From Eledone cirrhosa (Eukaryota): a stretch of 64,000 nucleotides of DNA. Below the pieces are notes generated by a model. That model ran no database searches, was not told where the DNA came from, and saw only the letters and a program-made list of their open reading frames with translations. A program made the position numbers and the translations under genes. This document shows positions 3,957 through 63,844 of this stretch, one piece after another. The DNA is taken from contig OZ024745.1 in assembly GCA_964016885.1 (NCBI GenBank), forward strand, positions 120,280,001 to 120,344,000, given 5' to 3'. Positions within the stretch are counted from its first letter, which is position 1. Each line of letters starts with the position of its first letter.

Positions 3957-4028
3957 GAGTTTCAGAAGATCCCGTTAAGGGTGAAAGCAGCGGTTATTTG
4001 CTTAAACTTTAATCTTTTATTTTAATAA

Positions 4029-4030
<2 letters not shown>
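3957..4030 (+). mobile_element. Isolated 3' terminus of the 33.8-37 kb PLE, consisting almost only of the HHR-like motif
   Basis: Near-identical to 36968-37040 and 63729-63800; flanked by (TA)n on both sides. Confidence 0.8.
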
Positions 4031-4074
<44 letters not shown>

Positions 4075-4136
4075 GACCGCTCTACAAAATCAGTTCCTGA
4101 TTGTTACTGGAATTCTATAAGAATCCAACACACATA

Positions 4137-4231
4137 ACTTTCGGTAGACAGGGAGAGTAGTGAGTTTTGATAAGTACCAAAAAGTACGAAACAGAGCTGT
4201 CAACTTATCTCCCCCTGTCTGCCGAAAATTT
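4137..4231 (+). ncRNA. Hammerhead ribozyme, U3-A8 core variant (copy 1)
   Basis: agtt-TTGATAA-gtac caaaaa gtac-GAAA-cag ag ctg-TC-aact; extended stem I ttcggtagacaggg/ccctgtctgccgaa. Confidence 0.7.
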
Positions 4232-4475
4232 AAGTAAGCGACAATGTCGCTACTTGAAAACAATAGCGTATTGTCTGCAATTATAACTGATTATTATAAC
4301 TGATTATAACTGATTATTACTGGAAATCTAAGTAATAATCAGTTATATGAATATATCAGTCATATATATATCGCTATCCAGAGCACCAATTCTAATTTTC
4401 AATTTCTGCTTGACAACCGCTCTGTATAATCAGTTCCTGATTATTACTGGAATTCTATAAGAGTCAAACATTCAT

Positions 4476-4572
4476 AATTTTCAGCAAACAGGCAGAGTAG
4501 TTAGCTTTGATAAGCACCAAAAAGTGCGAAACAGAGCTCTGTCAGCTTTATCTCCCCTGTTTGCTGAAAATT
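4476..4572 (+). ncRNA. Hammerhead ribozyme, U3-A8 core variant (copy 2)
   Basis: agct-TTGATAA-gcac caaaaa gtgc-GAAA-cagagctctg-TC-agct; extended stem I aattttcagcaaacagg/cctgtttgctgaaaatt; compensatory changes relative to copy 1. Confidence 0.75.
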
Positions 4573-4707
4573 GAAGTAAATGAGACTGTCACTACTCTAA
4601 AACAATAGCGTAAGGTCTTCGAAATGCTTTGAATTAAGCATACAGTGTATTGCAAAATACACTATATATACATTCATATATATATCGCTATTCCAGAGCA
4701 CCAATTC

Positions 4708-4753
<46 letters not shown>

Positions 4754-7564: not shown

Positions 7565-9976
7565 CAATAAAAAACGGATACCCAAATAAAAAATGGTTCA
7601 ACAAATAACGGGAGCCCCCCCCCCCAATAAAAAATGCATCCCCAAATAAAAGACGGATCCCCCCAAATAAGAAACGGAGCCCCCCAATAAAAAAATGGAT
7701 TCCCCCAAATAAAAAACGGATCACCCCCAGATAAAGAGCGGACACCAAATTAAAACGGATCCGCCAAATAAAAAACGGAGACCCCAAATAAAAATAGATC
7801 ACAAAATAAAAAACGGGACCCCTCCCCCCCAAAAAATAAAAAAATGGATCGCCAAATAAAAAACGGATCCCCCCCAAATAAAAAACGGATCCCCCCAAAT
7901 AAAAAACGGATACCCCAAATAAAAAACTAACCCCAAATAAGAAACGGATCCGCCCAAATAAAAATGGATCACAAAATAAAAAACGCGACCCCCCCAAATA
8001 AAAAATGGATCGCCAAATAAAAATCGGAGCCCCCGAAAAAACGGATCCCCCCAAATAAAAAACGAATCCACCCCCAATAAAATATGGATCCCCCAAATAA
8101 AAAAAGGAACCCAATAAAAAAGGTATCCTCCCCAAATAAAAAACGAATGTCCCCAAATTAAAAACAGATCCCCCCCCCCCAAATAAAATCGGAGCTCATC
8201 CCCCATAAAAAAAGGATACCCCCCAATAGAAAATGGATTCCCCAAATAAAAAACGGATCCCCCAAATAAAAAACGGATCCCCCAAATAAAAAATGGACAC
8301 CCAAATAAAAAACGGACCCCTCCAAATAAAAAAATGAATCACCAAATAAAAAAGGGAACCCTCCCCAATAAAAAAGGATACCCCAAATAAAAAAACGGAT
8401 CCACCCATATAAAAAACGGACCCCGCCCAATAAAAATGGACCCCCAAATAACAAACGCATCACCCAAATAAGAAACGGACCCCCAAATAAAAAACGGATC
8501 CCCCCAAATAAAAAAGGAGCCCTCCCCAATAAAAAAGGATACCGCCCCAATATAAAAGGTTCCTCCAAATGAAAAACGGATCCCTCCCAAATATAAAATG
8601 GACCCCCAAATAAAAAACGGCCCCTCCAAATAAAAAATGGATCACAAATAAACCCCCTGCCCACCCTAAACAAAAAACTGAGCCCCCCAATAAAAAATGG
8701 ATCGCCCCAAATAAAAAACGGTTCACCCAAATAAAAAACGGATGCCCCCAAATAAAAAACCGATCTCCCCGAATAAAAAACGGACCCCAAATAAAAAACG
8801 GAAGCCCCCCAAATAAAAAACGGACCCCACCCAATAAAAAAAGGACCCCCAAATGAAAAACGAATCCCCCCAAATATAAAACGGATGCCCCCAAATAAAA
8901 ATCGGACCCCCCTCAAAAAATGGATCCCCCCCAAATAAAAATGGGATCCCCAAATAAAAACGGATCCGCCCCGAATAAAAAACGGACCCAGCCCCCAATA
9001 AAAAACGCACCCCCAAATAAAAAACGGATCTCCCCCAAATGAAAAACGGACCCCCATATAAAAGCCGGATGGCCCCAAATAAAAAACGGATCCACCCCCC
9101 AAAAAAAAACCGGATCCCCCAAATAAAAAACGGACCACCAAATAAAAAACGGATCCGCCCAAATAAAAAACGGACCCCCCCCCCCCCCAAATAAAAAACG
9201 ATATCCCTTCCAAATAAAAAATGTATCACCAAATACAAAACGGATCCCTCCGAAATAAAAAACGGAACCCCAATTAAAAAACGGATCCTCCCCAAATAAA
9301 AAACGGATCTCCCCCAAATGAAAAACGGACCCCAAATAAAAAACGGATGCCCCCCCCAATAAAAAGGATCCCCCCCAAATGAAAAACGCATCCGCCAAAT
9401 AAAAAACGGATACCCCAAATAAAAAATGGATCACAAAATAAAAAACGGGACCCCTCCCAAATAAAAATTGGATCCCCAAATAAAAACGGATCCCCTCCAA
9501 ATAAAAACGGATCCCCCCAAATAATAATCTGACCCACCCCAAAAAACGCATCCCCCAAATCAAAAGCGGACCCCCAAATAAAAAACGGATCCCCAAAGAA
9601 AAAACGGATCCCCCAAAATAAAAAAGGATCCCCCCAAATAAAAAACGGATCCCTCCAAATAAAAATCTGACCCACCTCAAAAAACGCATCCCCCAAATCA
9701 AAAACGGACCCCCAAATAAAAAACGGATCCCCAAATAAAAAACGGATCCCCAAATAAAAAACGGATCCCCCCAAATAAAAAAAGGATCCCTCCAAATAAA
9801 AAACGGAGCCCCAAATAAAAACGGATCCTCCCCAAATAAAAAACGGATCTCCCCCAAATGAAAAACGGACCCCCAAATAAAAACCGGATCCCCCCCCCCC
9901 CCCAATAAAAAACAGGCACCCAAATAAAAAACGAATCCCCCAAATAAAAAAAAAACGGATTCCCCCCAAATAAAAA
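7565..9976. repeat. Degenerate 18-21-bp minisatellite, about 2.4 kb, consensus CCCCAAATAAAAAACGGAT
   Basis: Direct observation; variable C-run and A-run lengths; strongly strand-skewed. Confidence 0.95.
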
Positions 9977-11535: not shown

Positions 11536-11864
11536 CAATAGACTAACAGCAAGGTATACGATGCTGATGACAGCTAATAAGCTAGAAACTAGTTCATTGT
11601 TCTTTTGTCAGTGTTGAACAAAAGGACAACGATGGTTGCCGAACACTGTACGGCTTAATTCGCACTGTTTGTTTACAAACAAACCGAACATTATAATAAA
11701 TGTTCAGTAAACCCATACGTACATATATATATATGTGTGTGCATGTATGTATATACATACTACTGTACGTCTGTATACATTTATGTATGTACGTATACAT
11801 ACTTACATATATATATATATATATAAATGACAAAATAAGATGATGAGGTTATATATATCATTTG

Positions 11865-31985: not shown

Positions 31986-32095
31986 ATGCTTACAGCACCT
32001 AGGTTTCCCAAGCGGTCACCCATCTAAGTACTAACTAGGCTCGACGTTGCTTAACTTCAGTGATCGGACGAGAACCGTTGTTTTCAGCGTGATAT
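31986..32095 (-). rRNA. 5S rRNA, solitary copy lacking about the first 10 nt (probable pseudogene)
   Basis: Reverse complement atatcacgctgaaaacaacggttctcgtccgatcactgaagttaagcaacgtcgagcctagttagtacttagatgggtgaccgcttgggaaacctaggtgctgtaagc is recognisably eukaryotic 5S (box A agttaagc, box C gatgggtgacc). Confidence 0.9.
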
Positions 32096-32542
32096 ATATA
32101 TATATATATTGTTATGTTTGGGGAAGATCATCTTGTTATAATATTGCCAGAAGTATATAGTAAAACACACTCACTGTTTGGTTTGGGTTGGTTTTCGCTT
32201 CAGTATATTTTAGATTTCTATAATTAATTCAGCTGGCAATCAATGTTTATCATTGATTAACCAACAGTTAAAACTATAGATATAAATATAGTCTCTCAGA
32301 GTTCTTTCGTTACAAACCTGTGACATCATTAGATGTATATTTATATATATATATGTGTGTGGGGGGGGGGGGGGGGGCTTATGTGTATATATGTTTGTGC
32401 GTATGTGTGCATTATTAATTACTAATAGAAAGTGTATTTTGAGTTCACACCTATTTCAACTTCTTATCATGTGACTATGCAAATGCAAGACAGCTTGAAG
32501 AACCTATTATTTGCGAAACTCTGAAGTAAACATTAATAAGTA

Positions 32543-33787: not shown

Positions 33788-33791
<4 letters not shown>

Positions 33792-36700
33792 CGGTTGAGC
33801 ACTCTATTGACTTATATTCATCATGCAGAAACAACATCTGAATATTTCTACAAAGAACATACCCGTACCAAGCAGGAAAACATGCCTAAAACTCCTGATA
33901 CAGAAAACAGACGCGTTGGCGTGCCTTTTATTTCGATAATCAGGAAAAGGCAGACAACAAACAGGATAAATTTGGGTTTAAAACCTATAATAACCCTCCG
34001 AGTAACCCAACATTGCTACCCTTCGAAAATGATGTCTTGGAACTCATACGGAGTATCAAATTTCGGAATAGGAGCAATTCCTTCCAGCAGAACCTGAAGA
34101 ATAGAATTCGTTCTATTAAGGATTCTAACGCCGTGCACGTCCATTCCGACAAAACTGGCAATCTATATCAAGTGGAGCGCAGTTCTTACCATCAACTGCT
34201 ACATAATGATGTAACTAAGGATTACCGTAAAACTAATCGCAGCGTCATTAATGAAATCAACGATGCTGGGTTTAATATCACCTCTGATCTCAACATCCTG
34301 GACCGGACTGAACCTCTGGACCCTATTTCTCGCCACTTTACCCTGAAGGATCACAAATCCAATTTTCCGAAAAAAAACCTCTATTCGGCTTATTAACCCT
34401 ACGAAGTCTGATTTAGGTAGACTTAGTAAAAGGATTCTTGATAGAATTATACCTGAAATTAGTAGTTTGGCCCCTCTTGCACTGTGGAACAATTCTTTCG
34501 CGGTGATTGATTGGTTCAACGGCATATGTAACAAGGAACATTGCCGTTTTATCCAATTCGATATCAATAATTACTACTCCTCCATCACTTTACCACTTCT
34601 CCTTAGAGCTATCAATTTCGCTAAAACATTCACAGTGGTTAAGGATTTCGAAGTTGATATCATCCTCAATGCCCGTAAGTCGGTGATTTATTTCGACGAC
34701 TCTATTTGGATTAAAAAATCTAATAGTACCCCATTCGACGTGAGAATCGGCGCCAACGATTCTGCGGAGGTTACTGATCTTATCGGCCTTTTCCTTCTTT
34801 TCTCTATCAAGGAAGAATTCATTACCCAACGTGGGAGGTGGTTTGTACCGCGATGATGGGCTTTTGACCATGACTAAGTGCGGCCCACGTGCTTGCGACA
34901 GGTTCAGAAAAGAACTTACAGCCTTCTTTAAAGGCTTTAACCTCTCCATACAGGTTGAGACCAACCTCTCGGTCGTTAATTATCTCGACGTTACCCTCAA
35001 TTTATCGAATGGCTTGCATTACCCGTATAGAAAGCCGAATGATACGCTTAATTACATAAGTAAGCATTCTAACCATCCTGCCAGCATAACCAAGACCCTG
35101 GTAAGAAACGTTTCTTTGCGGCTTTCCCGTCTATCTACTAACAAGCATAATTTCAACGACCATTCCACATATTACAATGAAGCTCTTGCTCGGAGTGGAT
35201 TTGTCGATAAGGTAGCATATACAGAGTACGAGAATAGACCTAGAAGAAATAGATCCCGACGCATTATATGGTATAACCCACCATATAATATGGAGGTGGC
35301 CACACCATTAGTTAAGATCTTTCTCTCCCTTATTATGAAACATTTTCCCCCTACACATAAATATAGTAACATTTTTCATAGAAATACTATTAAAATTTCT
35401 TACTCTACGACTCCTAACCTTGCACATAACATCACAGCTTCAATTTAGCTAAACTACCTAGCCGTAGGAACACGTGCAACCCTGTAGTTAGTACTAACTG
35501 TAATTGTAGGAATCGGGTTGACTGCCCCCTATCCGGGAAATGCCTCTCTAGTAACATTGTCTACAAATGTAAGGTTGTAACACCCACATCCCGTAGGGCC
35601 TACATAGGGTTAACCGCCAATAGATTCAAGCAGCGTCTTTACATGCATACCCATTCTTTTCGTTACCCTTTAAGAAGGAATATGAGGTCACTTTCAGCTT
35701 ATATCTGGAGTCTAAAAGACAACCACACGCAATATAAGTTACACTGGGAGATCGTAGCTAAGGCTAGATCGTATAACGGAAATAAAAGACCATGTGACCT
35801 CTGAGCCGCTGAGGCCCTAGAAATACTCTACGCCAAAGACCACATCTTAAACAAAAAATCTGAGGCAATTTCGGCTTGTAAACATAAATTGCACAAAACT
35901 TTCCTGTATTACATCCCCACATTATACCCTAACAAATAGTACGAACTATACGCGGATATTTTACGTCTTGATGTGGTAGCTAAGTATATGTTATGTTTAT
36001 ACTATTACTTATTTGTATAGGTAAGTATATATTACCTGTATGTTTTGTGAAGGTACGTATACTTTCTCGTACGTATATTTGATTGTATATGTTATGGCGT
36101 ATATATTATATATTCTGGTACATATGCTTTTGGTTATGTGTATACGTGAGTTTTGCGTCTGTGTGAGTATGCGAGTTCGTACGTATGTAGGGTGTGTGTA
36201 TATGTGTACTTTGTGTTTTGGTCGACCTACGTCTCCGAACATATGTGTATTTACATGTAGGTATGTGTGTGCGCTTGTTATATACGTATTTATTTATATA
36301 CGTTTATTTAATAATATGTATACACGCACACACACACACATATATATATTTTTTTTTAATATATTTTTATGTGTATTTGGTGTATACATTCGTATGCGTG
36401 CGGGTACAGGCGTTGCGTGGGTTCTGTATGTGCGTGCGGGGTTTTTTTGTGTACGTGCGTGTATTTGTATATCTATGGTGAGTGTTTTCGCGTATGGTTG
36501 TGTATGTACGTTTATGGATGCGTGTACGTATATATTTAATTTCAATTACCTCTGTATTCTATTTACTTTATTCTTAACTCTGAAGCAGAGAATCATTCGG
36601 TTTCCTAGTTAGAATTCTAGTCTACGACTTCAGTTATACCATTTACGTGGTTTTGTATTTGCGTGCATTTGTTCTCCCCGCTCCACATATGACGTATTTT

Positions 36701-37033
36701 CTTTGACTTTTGCGTTCATTGCCAGAGAACGTCTCTATGAACCACCTAATAGAATATTAGTCTACGACTCCTTTTATACCATAAACGTGGTTTTGTCTTT
36801 GCGTGTAATTTTTTTTCACCGCTCCAAATAATGACGTAATATATTCGTTTTTTTTTCGTTCTTTGCCAGGGAACGTTTCCACAAACCAAAGTATCGTCTT
36901 CCTGTCTTCCTCCGGTTGCAACGTTTTTTTAAATATTCACTTCTGCGTTCACAGATTGACTTTGTTAGCTTCAGAAGTTCCCGTTAAGGGTGAAACCAGC
37001 GATTCCTTGCTTAAACTTTAATCTGTTATTTTA

Positions 37034-37040
<7 letters not shown>
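33788..37040 (+). mobile_element. Penelope-like retroelement (RT plus C-terminal GIY-YIG; Hydra-clade-like), near complete, frameshifted
   Basis: Consecutive ORF pieces 34013-34396, 34467-34856 (QFDINNYYSSI) and 34831-35448 (GLYRDDGL, NYLDVTL, YRKP, SNHP), then CNC..CPLSGKC-IVYK..YIG..FKQR endonuclease ending at 35939; about 1.1-kb 3' UTR ending in an HHR-like motif; (TA)n on both flanks. Confidence 0.9.
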
Positions 37041-52763: not shown

Positions 52764-53088
<325 letters not shown>

Positions 53089-53220
53089 TATATATGTGAA
53101 TATAGACATAGAATATTCGAAAATATTCTGTATGTTTATAATAAACATTTTGAAGACCTAATCGCTATAGAATAGAATACGTCACGTATTACAATTAGAT
53201 TCTCGATAAAAGCAAGGGAA

Positions 53221-53263
53221 GTAATCTACGCGTTTCATTCTTGTTAGAAATCATCAGGACTAC
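53221..53263 (-). ncRNA. Hammerhead ribozyme (first of 5 minus-strand copies, 310-bp spacing)
   Basis: Reverse complement: gtagtc-CTGATGA-tttct aaca agaat-GAAA-cgcg-TA-gattac. Confidence 0.85.
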
Positions 53264-54967
53264 ATATCCAGTGCTTTTATCGAGAATGACACAGCTAGAG
53301 ACTTATAGAATACTTAGCTGTGTACAGGAACTGGTTTGAAAGAGCGGTTGCCGGTCCGGCAGAAATTAGAAATTGGAATAAATGCTCTGAAATAGCGATA
53401 TATATGTGAATATAGACATAGAATATTCGAAAATATTCTGTATGTTTATAATAAACATTTTGAAGACCTAATCGCTATAGAATAGAATACGTCACGTATT
53501 ACAATTAGATTCTCGATAAAAGCAAGGGAAGTAATCTACGCGTTTCATTCTTGTTAGAAATCATCAGGACTACATATCCAGTGCTTTTATCGAGAATGAC
53601 ACAGCTAGAGACTTATAGAATACTTAGCTGTGTACAGGAACTGGTTTGAAAGAGCGGTTGCCGGTCCGGCAGAAATTAGAAATTGGAATAAATGCTCTGA
53701 AATAGCGATATATATGTGAATATAGACATAGAATATTCGAAAATATTCTGTATGTTTATAATAAACATTTTGAAGACCTAATCGCTATAGAATAGAATAC
53801 GTCACGTATTACAATTAGATTCTCGATAAAAGCAAGGGAAGTAATCTACGCGTTTCATTCTTGTTAGAAATCATCAGGACTACATATCCAGTGCTTTTAT
53901 CGAGAATGACACAGCTAGAGACTTATAGAATACTTAGCTGTGTACAGGAACTGGTTTGAAAGAGCGGTTGCCGGTCCGGCAGAAATTAGAAATTGGAATA
54001 AATGCTCTGAAATAGCGATATATATGTGAATATAGACATAGAATATTCGAAAATATTCTGTATGTTTATAATAAACATTTTGAAGACCTAATCGCTATAG
54101 AATAGAATACGTCACGTATTACAATTAGATTCTCGATAAAAGCAAGGGAAGTAATCTACGCGTTTCATTCTTGTTAGAAATCATCAGGACTACATATCCA
54201 GTGCTTTTATCGAGAATGACACAGCTAGAGACTTATAGAATACTTAGCTGTGTACAGGAACTGGTTTGAAAGAGCGGTTGCCGGTCCGGCAGAAATTAGA
54301 AATTGGAATAAATGCTCTGAAATAGCGATATATATGTGAATATAGACATAGAATATTCGAAAATATTCTGTATGTTTATAATAAACATTTTGAAGACCTA
54401 ATCGCTATAGAATAGAATACGTCACGTATTACAATTAGATTCTCGATAAAAGCAAGGGAAGTAATCTACGCGTTTCATTCTTGTTAGAAATCATCAGGAC
54501 TACATATCCAGTGCTTTTATCGAGAATGACACAGCTAGAGACTTATAGAATACTTAGCTGTGTACAGGAACTGGTTTGAAAGAGCGGTTGCCGGTCCGGC
54601 AGAAATTAGAAATTGGAATAAATGCTCTGAAATAGCGATATATATGTGAATATAGACATAGAATATTCGAAAATATTCTGTATGTTTATAATAAACATTT
54701 TGAAGACCTAATCGCTATAGAATAGAATACGTCACGTATTACAATTAGATTCTCGATAAAAGCAAGGGAAGTAGGTTTATTATAAACATACAGAATATTT
54801 TCGAATATTCTATGTCTATATTCACATATATATCGCTATTTCAGAGCATTTATTCCAATTTCTAATTTCTGCCGGACCGGCAACCGCTCTTTCAAACCAG
54901 TTCCTGTACACAGCTAAGTATTCTATAAGTCTCTAGCTGTGTCATTCTCGATAAAAGCACTGGATAT

Positions 54968-55010
54968 GTAGTCCTGATGATTTCTAACAAGAATGAAACG
55001 CGTAGATTAC
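54968..55010 (+). ncRNA. Hammerhead ribozyme (first of 8 plus-strand copies; last at 57138-57180)
   Basis: gtagtc-CTGATGA-tttct aaca agaat-GAAA-cgcg-TA-gattac; stem I extended by attctcgataaaagca/tgcttttatcgagaat. Confidence 0.85.
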
Positions 55011-57333
55011 TTCCCTTGCTTTTATCGAGAATCTAATTGTAATACGTGACGTATTCTATTCTATAGCGATTAGGTCTTCAAAATGTTTATTATAAACATA
55101 CAGAATATTTTCGAATATTCTATGTCTATATTCACATATATATCGCTATTTCAGAGCATTTATTCCAATTTCTAATTTCTGCCGGACCGGCAACCGCTCT
55201 TTCAAACCAGTTCCTGTACACAGCTAAGTATTCTATAAGTCTCTAGCTGTGTCATTCTCGATAAAAGCACTGGATATGTAGTCCTGATGATTTCTAACAA
55301 GAATGAAACGCGTAGATTACTTCCCTTGCTTTTATCGAGAATCTAATTGTAATACGTGACGTATTCTATTCTATAGCGATTAGGTCTTCAAAATGTTTAT
55401 TATAAACATACAGAATATTTTCGAATATTCTATGTCTATATTCACATATATATCGCTATTTCAGAGCATTTATTCCAATTTCTAATTTCTGCCGGACCGG
55501 CAACCGCTCTTTCAAACCAGTTCCTGTACACAGCTAAGTATTCTATAAGTCTCTAGCTGTGTCATTCTCGATAAAAGCACTGGATATGTAGTCCTGATGA
55601 TTTCTAACAAGAATGAAACGCGTAGATTACTTCCCTTGCTTTTATCGAGAATCTAATTGTAATACGTGACGTATTCTATTCTATAGCGATTAGGTCTTCA
55701 AAATGTTTATTATAAACATACAGAATATTTTCGAATATTCTATGTCTATATTCACATATATATCGCTATTTCAGAGCATTTATTCCAATTTCTAATTTCT
55801 GCCGGACCGGCAACCGCTCTTTCAAACCAGTTCCTGTACACAGCTAAGTATTCTATAAGTCTCTAGCTGTGTCATTCTCGATAAAAGCACTGGATATGTA
55901 GTCCTGATGATTTCTAACAAGAATGAAACGCGTAGATTACTTCCCTTGCTTTTATCGAGAATCTAATTGTAATACGTGACGTATTCTATTCTATAGCGAT
56001 TAGGTCTTCAAAATGTTTATTATAAACATACAGAATATTTTCGAATATTCTATGTCTATATTCACATATATATCGCTATTTCAGAGCATTTATTCCAATT
56101 TCTAATTTCTGCCGGACCGGCAACCGCTCTTTCAAACCAGTTCCTGTACACAGCTAAGTATTCTATAAGTCTCTAGCTGTGTCATTCTCGATAAAAGCAC
56201 TGGATATGTAGTCCTGATGATTTCTAACAAGAATGAAACGCGTAGATTACTTCCCTTGCTTTTATCGAGAATCTAATTGTAATACGTGACGTATTCTATT
56301 CTACAGCGATTAGGTCTTCAAAATGTTTATTATAAACATACAGAATATTTTCGAATATTCTATGTCTATATTCACATATATATCGCTATTTCAGAGCATT
56401 TATTCCAATTTCTAATTTCTGCCGGACCGGCAACCGCTCTTTCAAACCAGTTCCTGTACACAGCTAAGTATTCTATAAGTCTCTAGCTGTGTCATTCTCG
56501 ATAAAAGCACTGGATATGTAGTCCTGATGATTTCTAACAAGAATGAAACGCGTAGATTACTTCCCTTGCTTTTATCGAGAATCTAATTGTAATACGTGAC
56601 GTATTCTATTCTATAGCGATTAGGTCTTCAAAATGTTTATTATAAACATACAGAATATTTTCGAATATTCTATGTCTATATTCACATATATATCGCTATT
56701 TCAGAGCATTTATTCCAATTTCTAATTTCTGCCGGACCGGCAACCGCTCTTTCAAACCAGTTCCTGTACACAGCTAAGTATTCTATAAGTCTCTAGCTGT
56801 GTCATTCTCGATAAAAGCACTGGATATGTAGTCCTGATGATTTCTAACAAGAATGAAACGCGTAGATTACTTCCCTTGCTTTTATCGAGAATCTAATTGT
56901 AATACGTGACGTATTCTATTCTATAGCGATTAGGTCTTCAAAATGTTTATTATAAACATACAGAATATTTTCGAATATTCTATGTCTATATTCACATATA
57001 TATCGCTATTTCAGAGCATTTATTCCAATTTCTAATTTCTGCCGGACCGGCAACCGCTCTTTCAAACCAGTTCCTGTACACAGCTAAGTATTCTATAAGT
57101 CTCTAGCTGTGTCATTCTCGATAAAAGCACTGGATATGTAGTCCTGATGATTTCTAACAAGAATGAAACGCGTAGATTACTTCCCTTGCTTTTATCGAGA
57201 ATCTAATTGTAACACGTGACGTATTCTATTCTATAGCGATTAGGTCTTCAAAATGTTTATTATAAACATACAGAATATTTTCGAATATTCTATGTCTATA
57301 TTCACATATATATCGCTATTTCAGAGCATTTAT

Positions 57334-57543
<210 letters not shown>

Positions 57544-61332: not shown

Positions 61333-61346
61333 ATATATATATATAT

Positions 61347-61929
61347 ATTTATTAAAATAACAGATTAAAGTTTAAGCAAAGAATCGCTGCTTTCGCCTTA
61401 ACGGGATCTTCTGAAACTAACAAAGTCAATCTGTGAACGCAGAAGTGAATATTTCAAAAAACGTTGCAACCGGAGGAAGACAGGAAGACGATACTTTGGT
61501 TCGTGGAAACGTTCCCTGGCAAAGAACGGGAAAAACCGAATATAATACGTCATTATTTGGAGCGGTGAAAAACAATTACACGCAAAGACAAAACCACGTT
61601 TATGGTATAAAAGAAGTCGTAGACTAATATTCTATTAGGTGGTTTATAGAGACGTTCTCTGGCAATGAACGTAAAAAACGAAGATAATACGTCATATGTG
61701 AAGCGTGGAGAACAATTGCACGCAAAGAAAAAACCACGTAAATGGTATAACTGAAGTCGTAGACTAAAATTCTAACTAGGAAACCCAATGATTCTCGGCT
61801 TCAGAGTTAAGAATAAAGTAAATAAAATACAGAGGTAATTGAAATTAATTAAATATATACACGCATCCATATACGTACATACACAAGCATACGCGAACAC
61901 ACTCGCCATAGGTATACAAATACACGCAC

Positions 61930-61962
<33 letters not shown>

Positions 61963-62830
61963 CGTGTATACAAATAATTAGATAAACGTATATAAATAAA
62001 TAAATACGTATATAACAAGCGCACACACATACCTACATGTAAATACACATATGTTCGGAGACGTACGTCAACCAAAACACGAAATACACATATACACACA
62101 CCCTACATACGTACGAATCTACATACTCATGCAGACGCAAAACTCACGTATACACATAACCAAAAGCATATGTACCAGAATATATAAAAATATACGCCAT
62201 AACATAAACAATCAAATATACGTACGAGAAAGTATACGTACCTTCACAAAACATACAGGTAATATATACTTACCTATACAAATAAGTAATGGTATAAACA
62301 TAACATATACTTAGCTACCACATCAAGACGTAAAATATCCGCGTATAGATCGTACTATCCGTTAGGGTATAATGTTTGGCTGTAATACAGGAAAGTTTTG
62401 TGCAATTTATGTTTACAAGCCGAAATTGCCTCAGATCTTTTGTTTAAGATGTGGTCTTTGGCGTAGAGTATTACCAGGGCCTCAGCGCCGCAGAGGTCAC
62501 ATGGTCTTTTATTTCCGTTATACGATCTAGCCTTAGCTACGATCTCCCAGTGTAACTTATATTGCGTGTGGTTGTCTTTTAGACTCCAGATATAAGCTGA
62601 AAGTGACGTCATATTCCTTCTTAAAGGGTAAAGAAAAGAATGGGTATGCATGTAAAGACGCTGCTTGAATCTATTAGCGATTAACCCTATGTAGACCCTA
62701 CGGGACGTGGGTGTTTCAACCTTACATTTGTAGACAATGTTACTAGAGAGGCATTTCCCGGATAGGGGGCAGTCACCCCGATTCCTACAATTACAGTTAG
62801 TACTAACTACAGGGTTGCACGTGTTCCTAC
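61347..62830 (-). mobile_element. 5'-truncated copy of the 33.8-37 kb PLE (open GIY-YIG frame plus 3' UTR)
   Basis: [57 protein letters not shown], stop at 62355; (TA)n on both flanks. Confidence 0.92.
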
Positions 62831-63492: not shown

Positions 63493-63800
63493 CTTTCTTA
63501 GTCTGTCTTTTTGGATAGATACATAGCTATAACGCCGCGCCCTTATAATATCTGTCTGTATGTATGATTGTCTGCATTACGACAAACGTTTTTCTCATTG
63601 GTGACGTATTATCTTCGTTATTTTCCGTTCAGGGAACGTCTTTACGAACCAAAGTATCGTCTTCCTGCTTTCCTTTGGTTGCGACATTTTTCGAAATATT
63701 TACTTCTGCTTTCACAGATTGATTTTTTAGTTTCAGAAGATCCCGTTAAGGGCGAAAGCAGTGATTCTTTGCTTAAACTTTAATCTGTTATTTTAATATA

Positions 63801-63844
<44 letters not shown>

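What the first reader, a model, noticed from the sequence alone, without database searches (positions are those of the whole stretch)
4360..4465. Conserved non-ribozyme block shared by two retrozyme families; insertions end in it
Seen: catatatatcgctat..cagagca..ccaatt..aatttctgc..caaccgctct..cagttcctg..attctataag is shared by the 340-bp and 310-bp units although their hammerheads differ. All three 3' ends (4712; 53091 on -; 57338) fall within about 50 nt of this block and merge into (TA)n through short AT overlaps. Inference: this block is the cis signal for RT recognition or target priming, or an internal promoter, and the ribozyme is an exchangeable module.
Basis: inference. Interest (0 to 1): 0.72.

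Follow-up and report, generated by a model that had tools for sequence, protein, structure and literature searches.

The report
Copy-start signal of a ribozyme retroelement
The shared stretch is the best-conserved part of one family of small non-coding mobile repeats whose genomic copies nearly all end at two fixed points inside it; it likely marks where a borrowed Penelope-type enzyme starts copying the RNA and may also hold a promoter, while the self-cutting ribozyme appears to have diverged in place rather than been swapped.

Summary
The block is real (79% identical between the units, 61% elsewhere), but the units are colinear homologs of one non-LTR retrozyme family (subfamilies of 319, 318 and 310 bp; the '340-bp unit' is one damaged copy). 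The ribozyme region differs by compensatory changes (19 of 30 pairs), so 'exchangeable module' is not supported. In three subfamilies 93 of 109 arms end at two homologous sites about 26-35 nt apart; two-armed insertions carry one short and one long end in 22 of 25 classifiable pairs. This is the Penelope 'tail', known to mark two internal reverse-transcription starts. The block's 3' half keeps the spacing of this genome's U1/U2/U5 promoter boxes but scores weakly (8-11 bits against 22-30). No autonomous Penelope-like element sharing the block was found. The scan already reported the two-end footprint and snRNA-type promoters for other retrozymes in this genome. Known kind, with a usefully precise, testable map.

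The parts
4076..4714 (+). Single-armed insertion of retrozyme subfamily A in (TA)n: a 5'-truncated A1-type unit, a private filler, one full A2-type unit and a long-class tail
4275..4360 (+). Private filler of short repeats that replaces the 3' third of the first unit; cause of the apparent 340-bp period
   Evidence: found only at this locus among loci held
4361..4396 (+). Block part 1: the 'tail' between the short (unit 2-11) and long (unit 36-37) end sites; holds TCGCTAT (4371-4377) and CAGAGC (4379-4384), predicted helix strands
4397..4424 (+). Block part 2: segment just 3' of the long end site; small hairpin (this copy lacks 4 nt of it) and GCTCTG (4419-4424), predicted to pair with CAGAGC and so to enclose the long start site in a loop
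4401..4461 (+). Block part 3: candidate U1/U2/U5-type promoter boxes AATTT (4401-4405), ATCAGT (4429-4434), TATAAG (4456-4461); predicted start near 4486; first spacing shortened by the 4-nt deletion in this copy
4477..4573 (+). Type I hammerhead (core UUGAUAA at 4507, U3:A8 variant; GAAA at 4528; predicted cut after 4543) on a long covarying stem I
   Evidence: Hammerhead_HH9 4493-4562, 24.1 bits, below gathering 52
4149..4224 (+). Hammerhead of the first (A1-type) unit
   Evidence: 23.4 bits, below gathering
4605..4684 (+). Second conserved island: ATAGCG (pairs with TCGCTAT of the next tail), GGTCTTC, two covarying hairpins and the AU hairpin whose loop holds the short end site
4675..4714 (+). 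Terminal tail; long-class 3' end joined to (TA)n
53088..54773 (-). Subfamily B arm, 5.4 units of 310 bp, short-class end (junction 53088-53095) in (TA)n
54775..57339 (+). Subfamily B arm, 8.3 units, long-class end in (TA)n; joined head to head with the other arm
55133..55239 (+). The same block in one B unit
55269..55334 (+). B hammerhead (CUGAUGA at 55284, C3:G8; palindromic CGCG stem III)
   Evidence: 19.2 bits, below gathering

Best explanation
The two units are subfamilies of one non-coding hammerhead-bearing repeat whose copies end at two fixed sites in the block, and the block is likely the 3' half of a folded RNA domain where a Penelope-like element's reverse transcriptase starts copying, followed by a possible snRNA-type promoter. 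Shown: whole-unit homology, two fixed end sites, random 5' ends, head-to-head arms with one short and one long end, (TA)n targets, covarying helices. Inferred steps: (1) an array is transcribed, possibly from the U1/U2-like boxes, start near unit 131; (2) hammerheads cut it to ~310-320-nt monomers that may circularise; (3) a Hydra- or Neptune-type PLE protein binds the domain from unit ~250 round to ~70, cuts both strands of a (TA)n tract, and primes one cDNA at the short site and the other at the long site; (4) each cDNA runs over several units (circle or multimer), stops at random, and the two are joined head to head. Sequence 3' of the long site is conserved because it would be part of the binding site on the RNA, as for the anole Poseidon element.
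For: Ends: 38 of 43 A arms, 22 of 23 B arms, 33 of 43 E arms in two windows covering about 11% of the unit; 5' ends uniform in A and B (KS p 0.68, 0.52). Head-to-head pairs with one short and one long end: B 10 of 10, A 7 of 10, E 5 of 5 where both ends could be classed (10 further pairs had an unclassed end). Same two-end pattern in autonomous PLE families of this genome. PMC8557442 (passages): 30-40-bp tail often at one end only, inverted 5'-truncated arm, (TA)n targets. PMC11167929 (parts 1-2 of 4): tail equals the sequence between two internal RT start sites in an AC-rich stem loop, and the minimal RNA extends 3' of them. Fold: domain z = -3.2, -2.6, -2.9 in B, A, E with the same long-range helices; 94.5% of cells paired, 3 compensated pairs in the named structure plus one in the hairpin at the short site. 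Ribozyme domain 19 of 30 pairs compensated, covariation 0.569 against 0.306 +/- 0.026. Both arms usually share private variants (variant in all listed units of both arms). Promoter: 12 of 12 U1/U2/U5 upstream regions have AATTA at -91..-88, 11 of 12 TCAGT at -58..-55; the block site ranks 1, 1, 2, 3 of ~630 in B, E, A, V; column-shuffle p 2/1000 (three boxes), 29/1000 (two boxes).
Against: No autonomous element sharing the domain was found in about a dozen PLE end families examined by BLAST, nhmmer and a covariance model. The two long-range helices that involve the block are almost invariant, so covariation says nothing for them. Promoter scores are 8-11 bits against 21.8-30.0 for held-out host promoters, single-unit shuffle tests are not significant (B 63 of 400; window A 172 of 400; in one A copy another site scored higher), and the first box reads AATTT, not AATTA. 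Three A pairs break the short+long rule (2 long-long, 1 short-short), and in L031 the two arms are of different subfamilies. E 5' ends are not uniform (KS p 0.0005; the query selected for near-full units). No expression, cleavage or circle data.
Confidence: 0.7

Rival explanations
1. The block is conserved mainly as a DNA promoter (snRNA type); the fixed ends are set by signals upstream in the unit, and the block's 5' half is conserved only because it is the spacer of that promoter.
For: No indel among A, E and B over unit 1-72 and one over 73-107; spacings 33 and 26-27 match the host's 32-34 and 25-28; predicted start falls on pyrimidine-A in all four subfamilies; newt satellite 2 has an snRNA promoter (as cited in PMC2220036).
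Against: The most invariant letters lie between and upstream of the boxes, where host promoters are not conserved; weak box scores; it does not explain the complementarity of the conserved islands.
Confidence: 0.12
2. One reading: the block is a stand-alone cis module and the ribozyme was exchanged between unrelated families; subfamily B took its hammerhead from another TA-targeted element.
For: Identity drops to 49-57% over the ribozyme region. B's stem II matches that of another element family in 25-26 of 27-28 letters, and B 98-177 aligns at 74% to inverted junctions of that family. A's U3:A8 core and stem II resemble a Neptune family's hammerhead.
Against: Whole-unit colinearity; B's inner stem I is identical to E's, and E joins an A-like core to a B-like stem; 19 of 30 pairs compensated in register; the 470-480-bp retrozymes held do not carry the block.
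Confidence: 0.08
3. Ends cluster only because the unit has an internal TA run and AAT words that anneal to, or recombine with, (TA)n tracts; no special RT signal is involved.
For: The short site contains a TA run and every end shows 1-10 letters of possible overlap.
Against: 64-74 positions per unit end in AT/TA but only two zones are used; half of B short ends drop the TA run altogether; nearby AAT words are skipped in favour of position 36-37; it does not predict one short plus one long end per insertion.
Confidence: 0.05
4. The arrays are ordinary DNA-level satellites or recombination products seeded by dead PLE ends.
For: Proposed as a route in bioRxiv 10.64898/2026.07.22.740005 (discussion).
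Against: Dispersed young insertions with fixed ends, head-to-head arms and subfamily-specific compensated RNA helices.
Confidence: 0.05

Closest known systems
Metazoan non-LTR retrozymes (Cervera and de la Pena 2020, PMC7229834, passages and section 17; Li, Clavereau and Pollet, bioRxiv 10.64898/2026.07.22.740005, parts 1-3 of 5)
   Same: Non-coding ~300-bp head-to-tail units, one type I hammerhead each, low GC, thousands of copies, PLEs in the same genome proposed as the enzyme source.
   Different: In the parts read, neither paper maps insertion ends, an RT-start domain or an internal promoter; the preprint links retrozymes to known PLE pseudo-LTRs by sequence, which could not be done here.
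Penelope-like element tail and internal RT initiation (Craig et al. 2021, PMC8557442, passages and section 11; Frangieh et al. 2024, PMC11167929, parts 1-2 of 4)
   Same: Optional 30-40-bp tail at one end, inverted 5'-truncated arm, AT-rich or (TA)n target, two start sites downstream of a hammerhead in a stem loop, little homology to the target.
   Different: Here the element has no ORF, arms run over many units, and the partner enzyme is unidentified; local PLE tails are 40-95 nt and share no significant sequence with this one.
Newt satellite 2 (Coats, Zhang and Epstein 1994; seen only as cited in PMC2220036; paper not held)
   Same: Hammerhead repeat with an internal snRNA-type Pol II promoter.
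   Different: The promoter here is a weak computational match, untested; boxes are this genome's own (AATTA, ATCAGT, TATA).

Membership tests
Non-LTR retrozyme | Short (150-500 bp) head-to-tail non-coding units, dimers to multimers | tested here: met
   310-bp arrays of 5.4 and 8.3 units; A periods 319-320
Non-LTR retrozyme | One type I hammerhead per unit | tested here: met
   Core motifs and helices in A, B, E, V with covariation; Rfam Hammerhead_HH9 matches at E 0.0015-0.031 but below the gathering score (none at gathering)
Non-LTR retrozyme | Dispersed, many copies | tested here: met
   17,231 exact matches to the block core pattern; 4,200 to a B hammerhead 38-mer
Non-LTR retrozyme | Self-cleavage and circular RNA in vivo | not testable with these tools
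   No RNA holder listed; contigs cannot show it
PLE-mobilised element | Two fixed 3' ends (optional tail), random 5' truncation, inverted arm, microsatellite target | tested here: met
PLE-mobilised element | Sequence shared with the pseudo-LTR of an autonomous PLE | tested here: inconclusive
   None found in about a dozen families sampled; best hints p = 11/500 and 19/2000 among 18 and 12 tests; sampling incomplete
U1/U2/U5-type (Pol II snRNA) promoter of this genome | AATTA, ATCAGT and TATA boxes at spacings 32-34 and 25-28 | tested here: inconclusive
   Spacing met, box 1 mismatched, scores 8-11 against 22-30 bits; column shuffle 2/1000
U6-type promoter of this genome | Octamer about 40 nt before a TATA box | tested here: not met
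   No octamer within one mismatch on either strand of A, B, E, V; U6 upstream regions

The most novel reading that the evidence does not exclude
A 310-nt retrozyme is a complete minimal parasite of Penelope-like elements: one conserved ~140-nt fold presents two start loops so that a PLE enzyme copies one RNA circle into both strands of a cut, and an overlapping U1/U2-type promoter makes every array self-transcribing. The helix that encloses the long start site may be a general PLE recognition architecture (seen by folding in two Neptune families and one Hydra family here), recognised by shape rather than sequence.
Probability: 0.35. Interest if true: 0.72.

Novelty: new member of a known kind. 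Interest (0 to 1): 0.45.

Why it matters
How animal retrozymes are copied and transcribed is proposed but, in the papers read, not shown. This family gives nucleotide-level predictions: two start sites, the helices around them and three promoter boxes, in a genome that holds young PLEs with intact ORFs (713 and 821 aa). That makes the PLE-retrozyme partnership testable in the in vitro system of PMC11167929. It also corrects the finding: the ribozyme is not a swapped module.

Tried and rejected
U6-type promoter: rejected. DNA search of the genome with a B stretch returned nothing, even the own copy, so it was uninformative; a pattern worked. Partner search: the PLE fragment next to the finding (3957-4030) is the 3' end of a Hydra-type family with a 92-nt tail of other sequence; GIY-YIG family search (Neptune-type hits), three further Hydra-type peptides, and a pattern for block hairpin followed by ATG gave no partner (30 or 25 loci read of 150 listed per search, 30 of 373 for the pattern). 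Covariance-model hits above 55 bits were family members only; the three next hits inspected were TA-rich noise. Pfam gave nothing for the window's PLE peptides. Expression: no RNA holder listed; 340-nt looped contigs are expected from tandem DNA. Resemblance of the tail to a Neptune tail failed its shuffle test. A fifth PLE junction (H5) did not fold with a helix enclosing its long end, so the 'common architecture' stands at 3 of 4. PMC13652810 had nothing on cephalopod snRNA promoters. Paper searches showed no description of this family; supplements were not read and could hold Repbase-type consensus entries that match it.

Full report
Observation. The block lies at 4361-4461 and recurs in each 310-bp unit at 53-57 kb. 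A local alignment of the two units scores 172 against 44.7 +/- 7.1 in 1000 shuffles, but it runs over the whole unit, and the part outside the block alone scores 81 against 31.2 +/- 5.4, 0 of 1000. Using a majority sequence of A copies, identity to B is 79% in the block, 49-57% around the hammerhead, 75% at unit 236-290. Tandem A arrays elsewhere have periods of 319-320; the 340 spacing comes from a filler at 4275-4360 found only here, which joins an A1-type unit to an A2-type unit. The window's A2 copy also lacks 4 nt of the block. The genome (2.996 Gb; an animal, cephalopod by my recall of its SINEs and by earlier notes, not tested) holds 17,231 exact matches to the block core.

One family. 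A motif from laid contigs led to a third subfamily E (318 bp; 75% to A, 68% to B); single copies of two more variants turned up (V in L124, F in L334). All are colinear. Over the ribozyme and its long stem, 19 of 30 pairs carry compensatory changes among 9 natural copies (covariation 0.569 against 0.306 +/- 0.026; slid controls at most 0.144; related rows inflate such counts). The core pair alternates between U3:A8 (A, E) and C3:G8 (B, V, F), and B's inner stem I is identical to E's. The ribozyme therefore most likely diverged in place. Against this: B's stem II also matches another element family over 27-28 letters, which I cannot fully exclude as a patch.

Ends. With queries that avoid the block, 38 of 43 A arms (28 loci), 22 of 23 B arms (12 loci) and 33 of 43 E arms (29 loci, one arm counted twice through a local duplication) end in two zones: unit 2-11 and 36-44, mostly 36-38 (A and E queries disfavour ends inside the queried middle part). 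5' ends are uniform in A and B. Of 35 head-to-head pairs, 25 had both ends classed, and 22 of these have one short and one long end. The window's B insertion is such a pair; the A insertion is a single long-ended arm. AT overlap does not explain the choice: 64-74 positions per unit end in AT/TA, and of 18 B short junctions 9 break at position 2, 3 earlier and 6 within the TA run. Craig et al. (PMC8557442, passages) describe a 30-40-bp tail often at one end only, with an inverted truncated arm; Frangieh et al. (PMC11167929, parts 1-2 of 4) show that the tail is the stretch between two internal RT start sites and that the RNA needed extends past them. Autonomous Hydra- and Neptune-type PLEs of this genome show the same two-end pattern (Hydra features from section 11). 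Both arms of an insertion usually share private variants, as expected from one template, with one exception (L031).

What the block is. Folding B, A and E copies from unit ~250 round to ~70 gives the same frame with z of -3.2, -2.6 and -2.9: ATAGCG of the second island pairs with the block's CGCTAT and encloses two or three hairpins; CAGAGC pairs with GCTCT and encloses a ~22-nt unpaired AU/C-rich stretch and a small hairpin. The long end site lies in that stretch; the short site lies at the loop of an AU hairpin (in the A, E and alignment folds, not in B's own minimum-energy fold). Hairpins upstream covary (3 pairs; one more at the short-site hairpin); the two long-range helices are nearly invariant and thus unproven. 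In two Neptune families and one Hydra family a helix likewise encloses the long end; in a second Hydra family it does not.

Promoter. U6 genes here have octamer plus TATA; the units have no octamer. U1, U2 and U5 genes share AATTA near -90 (12 of 12), TCAGT near -57 (11 of 12) and TATA near -30. But scores are 8-11 bits against 21.8-30.0 for held-out promoters, and per-unit shuffles are not significant. I put a working snRNA-type promoter at about 50%. A precedent, newt satellite 2, I saw only as cited in PMC2220036.

Partner. None found: BLAST, nhmmer and a covariance model over PLE loci and 400 kb of random genome returned only family members. Weak hints point to Hydra-type elements (11 of 500 and 19 of 2000 shuffles, not significant after 18 and 12 tests); one such family is as young as B, with identical copies and 821-aa open frames.

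Verdict. A non-LTR retrozyme (PMC7229834; bioRxiv 10.64898/2026.07.22.740005) with the PLE tail footprint. Earlier notes of this scan report the two-end footprint and snRNA-like promoters for other retrozymes of this genome; they are not independent support and they lower the surprise. What this report adds is the dissection of the block and the predicted fold around the two start sites. Searches found no paper on this family; supplements were not read.

Noticed in passing
window 33790-37040 (+) and about 61340-62830 (-); 3' ends alone at 3957-4030 and near 63700-63810: Hydra-type Penelope-like element (RWR, DKT, CxCx5C motifs; GIY-YIG); the window copies are broken or truncated, other copies have 713-aa open frames; 92-nt tail.
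   Followed up: partly
L190 1-3728; L071; L141 2250-2720; window near 11563: Unrelated 470-482-bp retrozymes carry an octamer, a TCAG-like box about 25-27 nt before TATA, and TATA about 46 nt before the hammerhead core; they do not share the block.
   Followed up: partly
L333-L362, L393-L412: Several Neptune-type PLE families target (TA)n and use U3:A8 hammerhead variants; two share a helix that encloses the long end just before the ATG.
   Followed up: partly
L463-L490: A very young Hydra-type family with many identical copies and 821-aa open frames; shares a hairpin after its long end with the window's Hydra family; one copy abuts a B retrozyme (L489).
   Followed up: partly
L205-L257 (U1, U2, U5 loci): This genome's Pol II snRNA promoters have three boxes including a TATA box near -30, unlike the TATA-less vertebrate type (recalled); U6 promoters lack the ATCAGT box.
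   Followed up: partly
window 31987-32105 (-): 5S rRNA copy lacking its 5' end, fused to a (TA)n tract; several U6 copies are likewise next to (TA)n (L014, L260, L261), suggesting capture by the same machinery.
   Followed up: no
window 4076-4360; L031: Units or arms of two different A subfamilies joined in one locus, hinting at template switching or nested insertion.
   Followed up: partly
L007, L008, L010-L013: In a tandem U6 cluster some genes have a SINE inserted just upstream of the TATA box, displacing the octamer.
   Followed up: no
window 7619-9976: About 115 copies of a 20-21-bp C/A-rich repeat.
   Followed up: no
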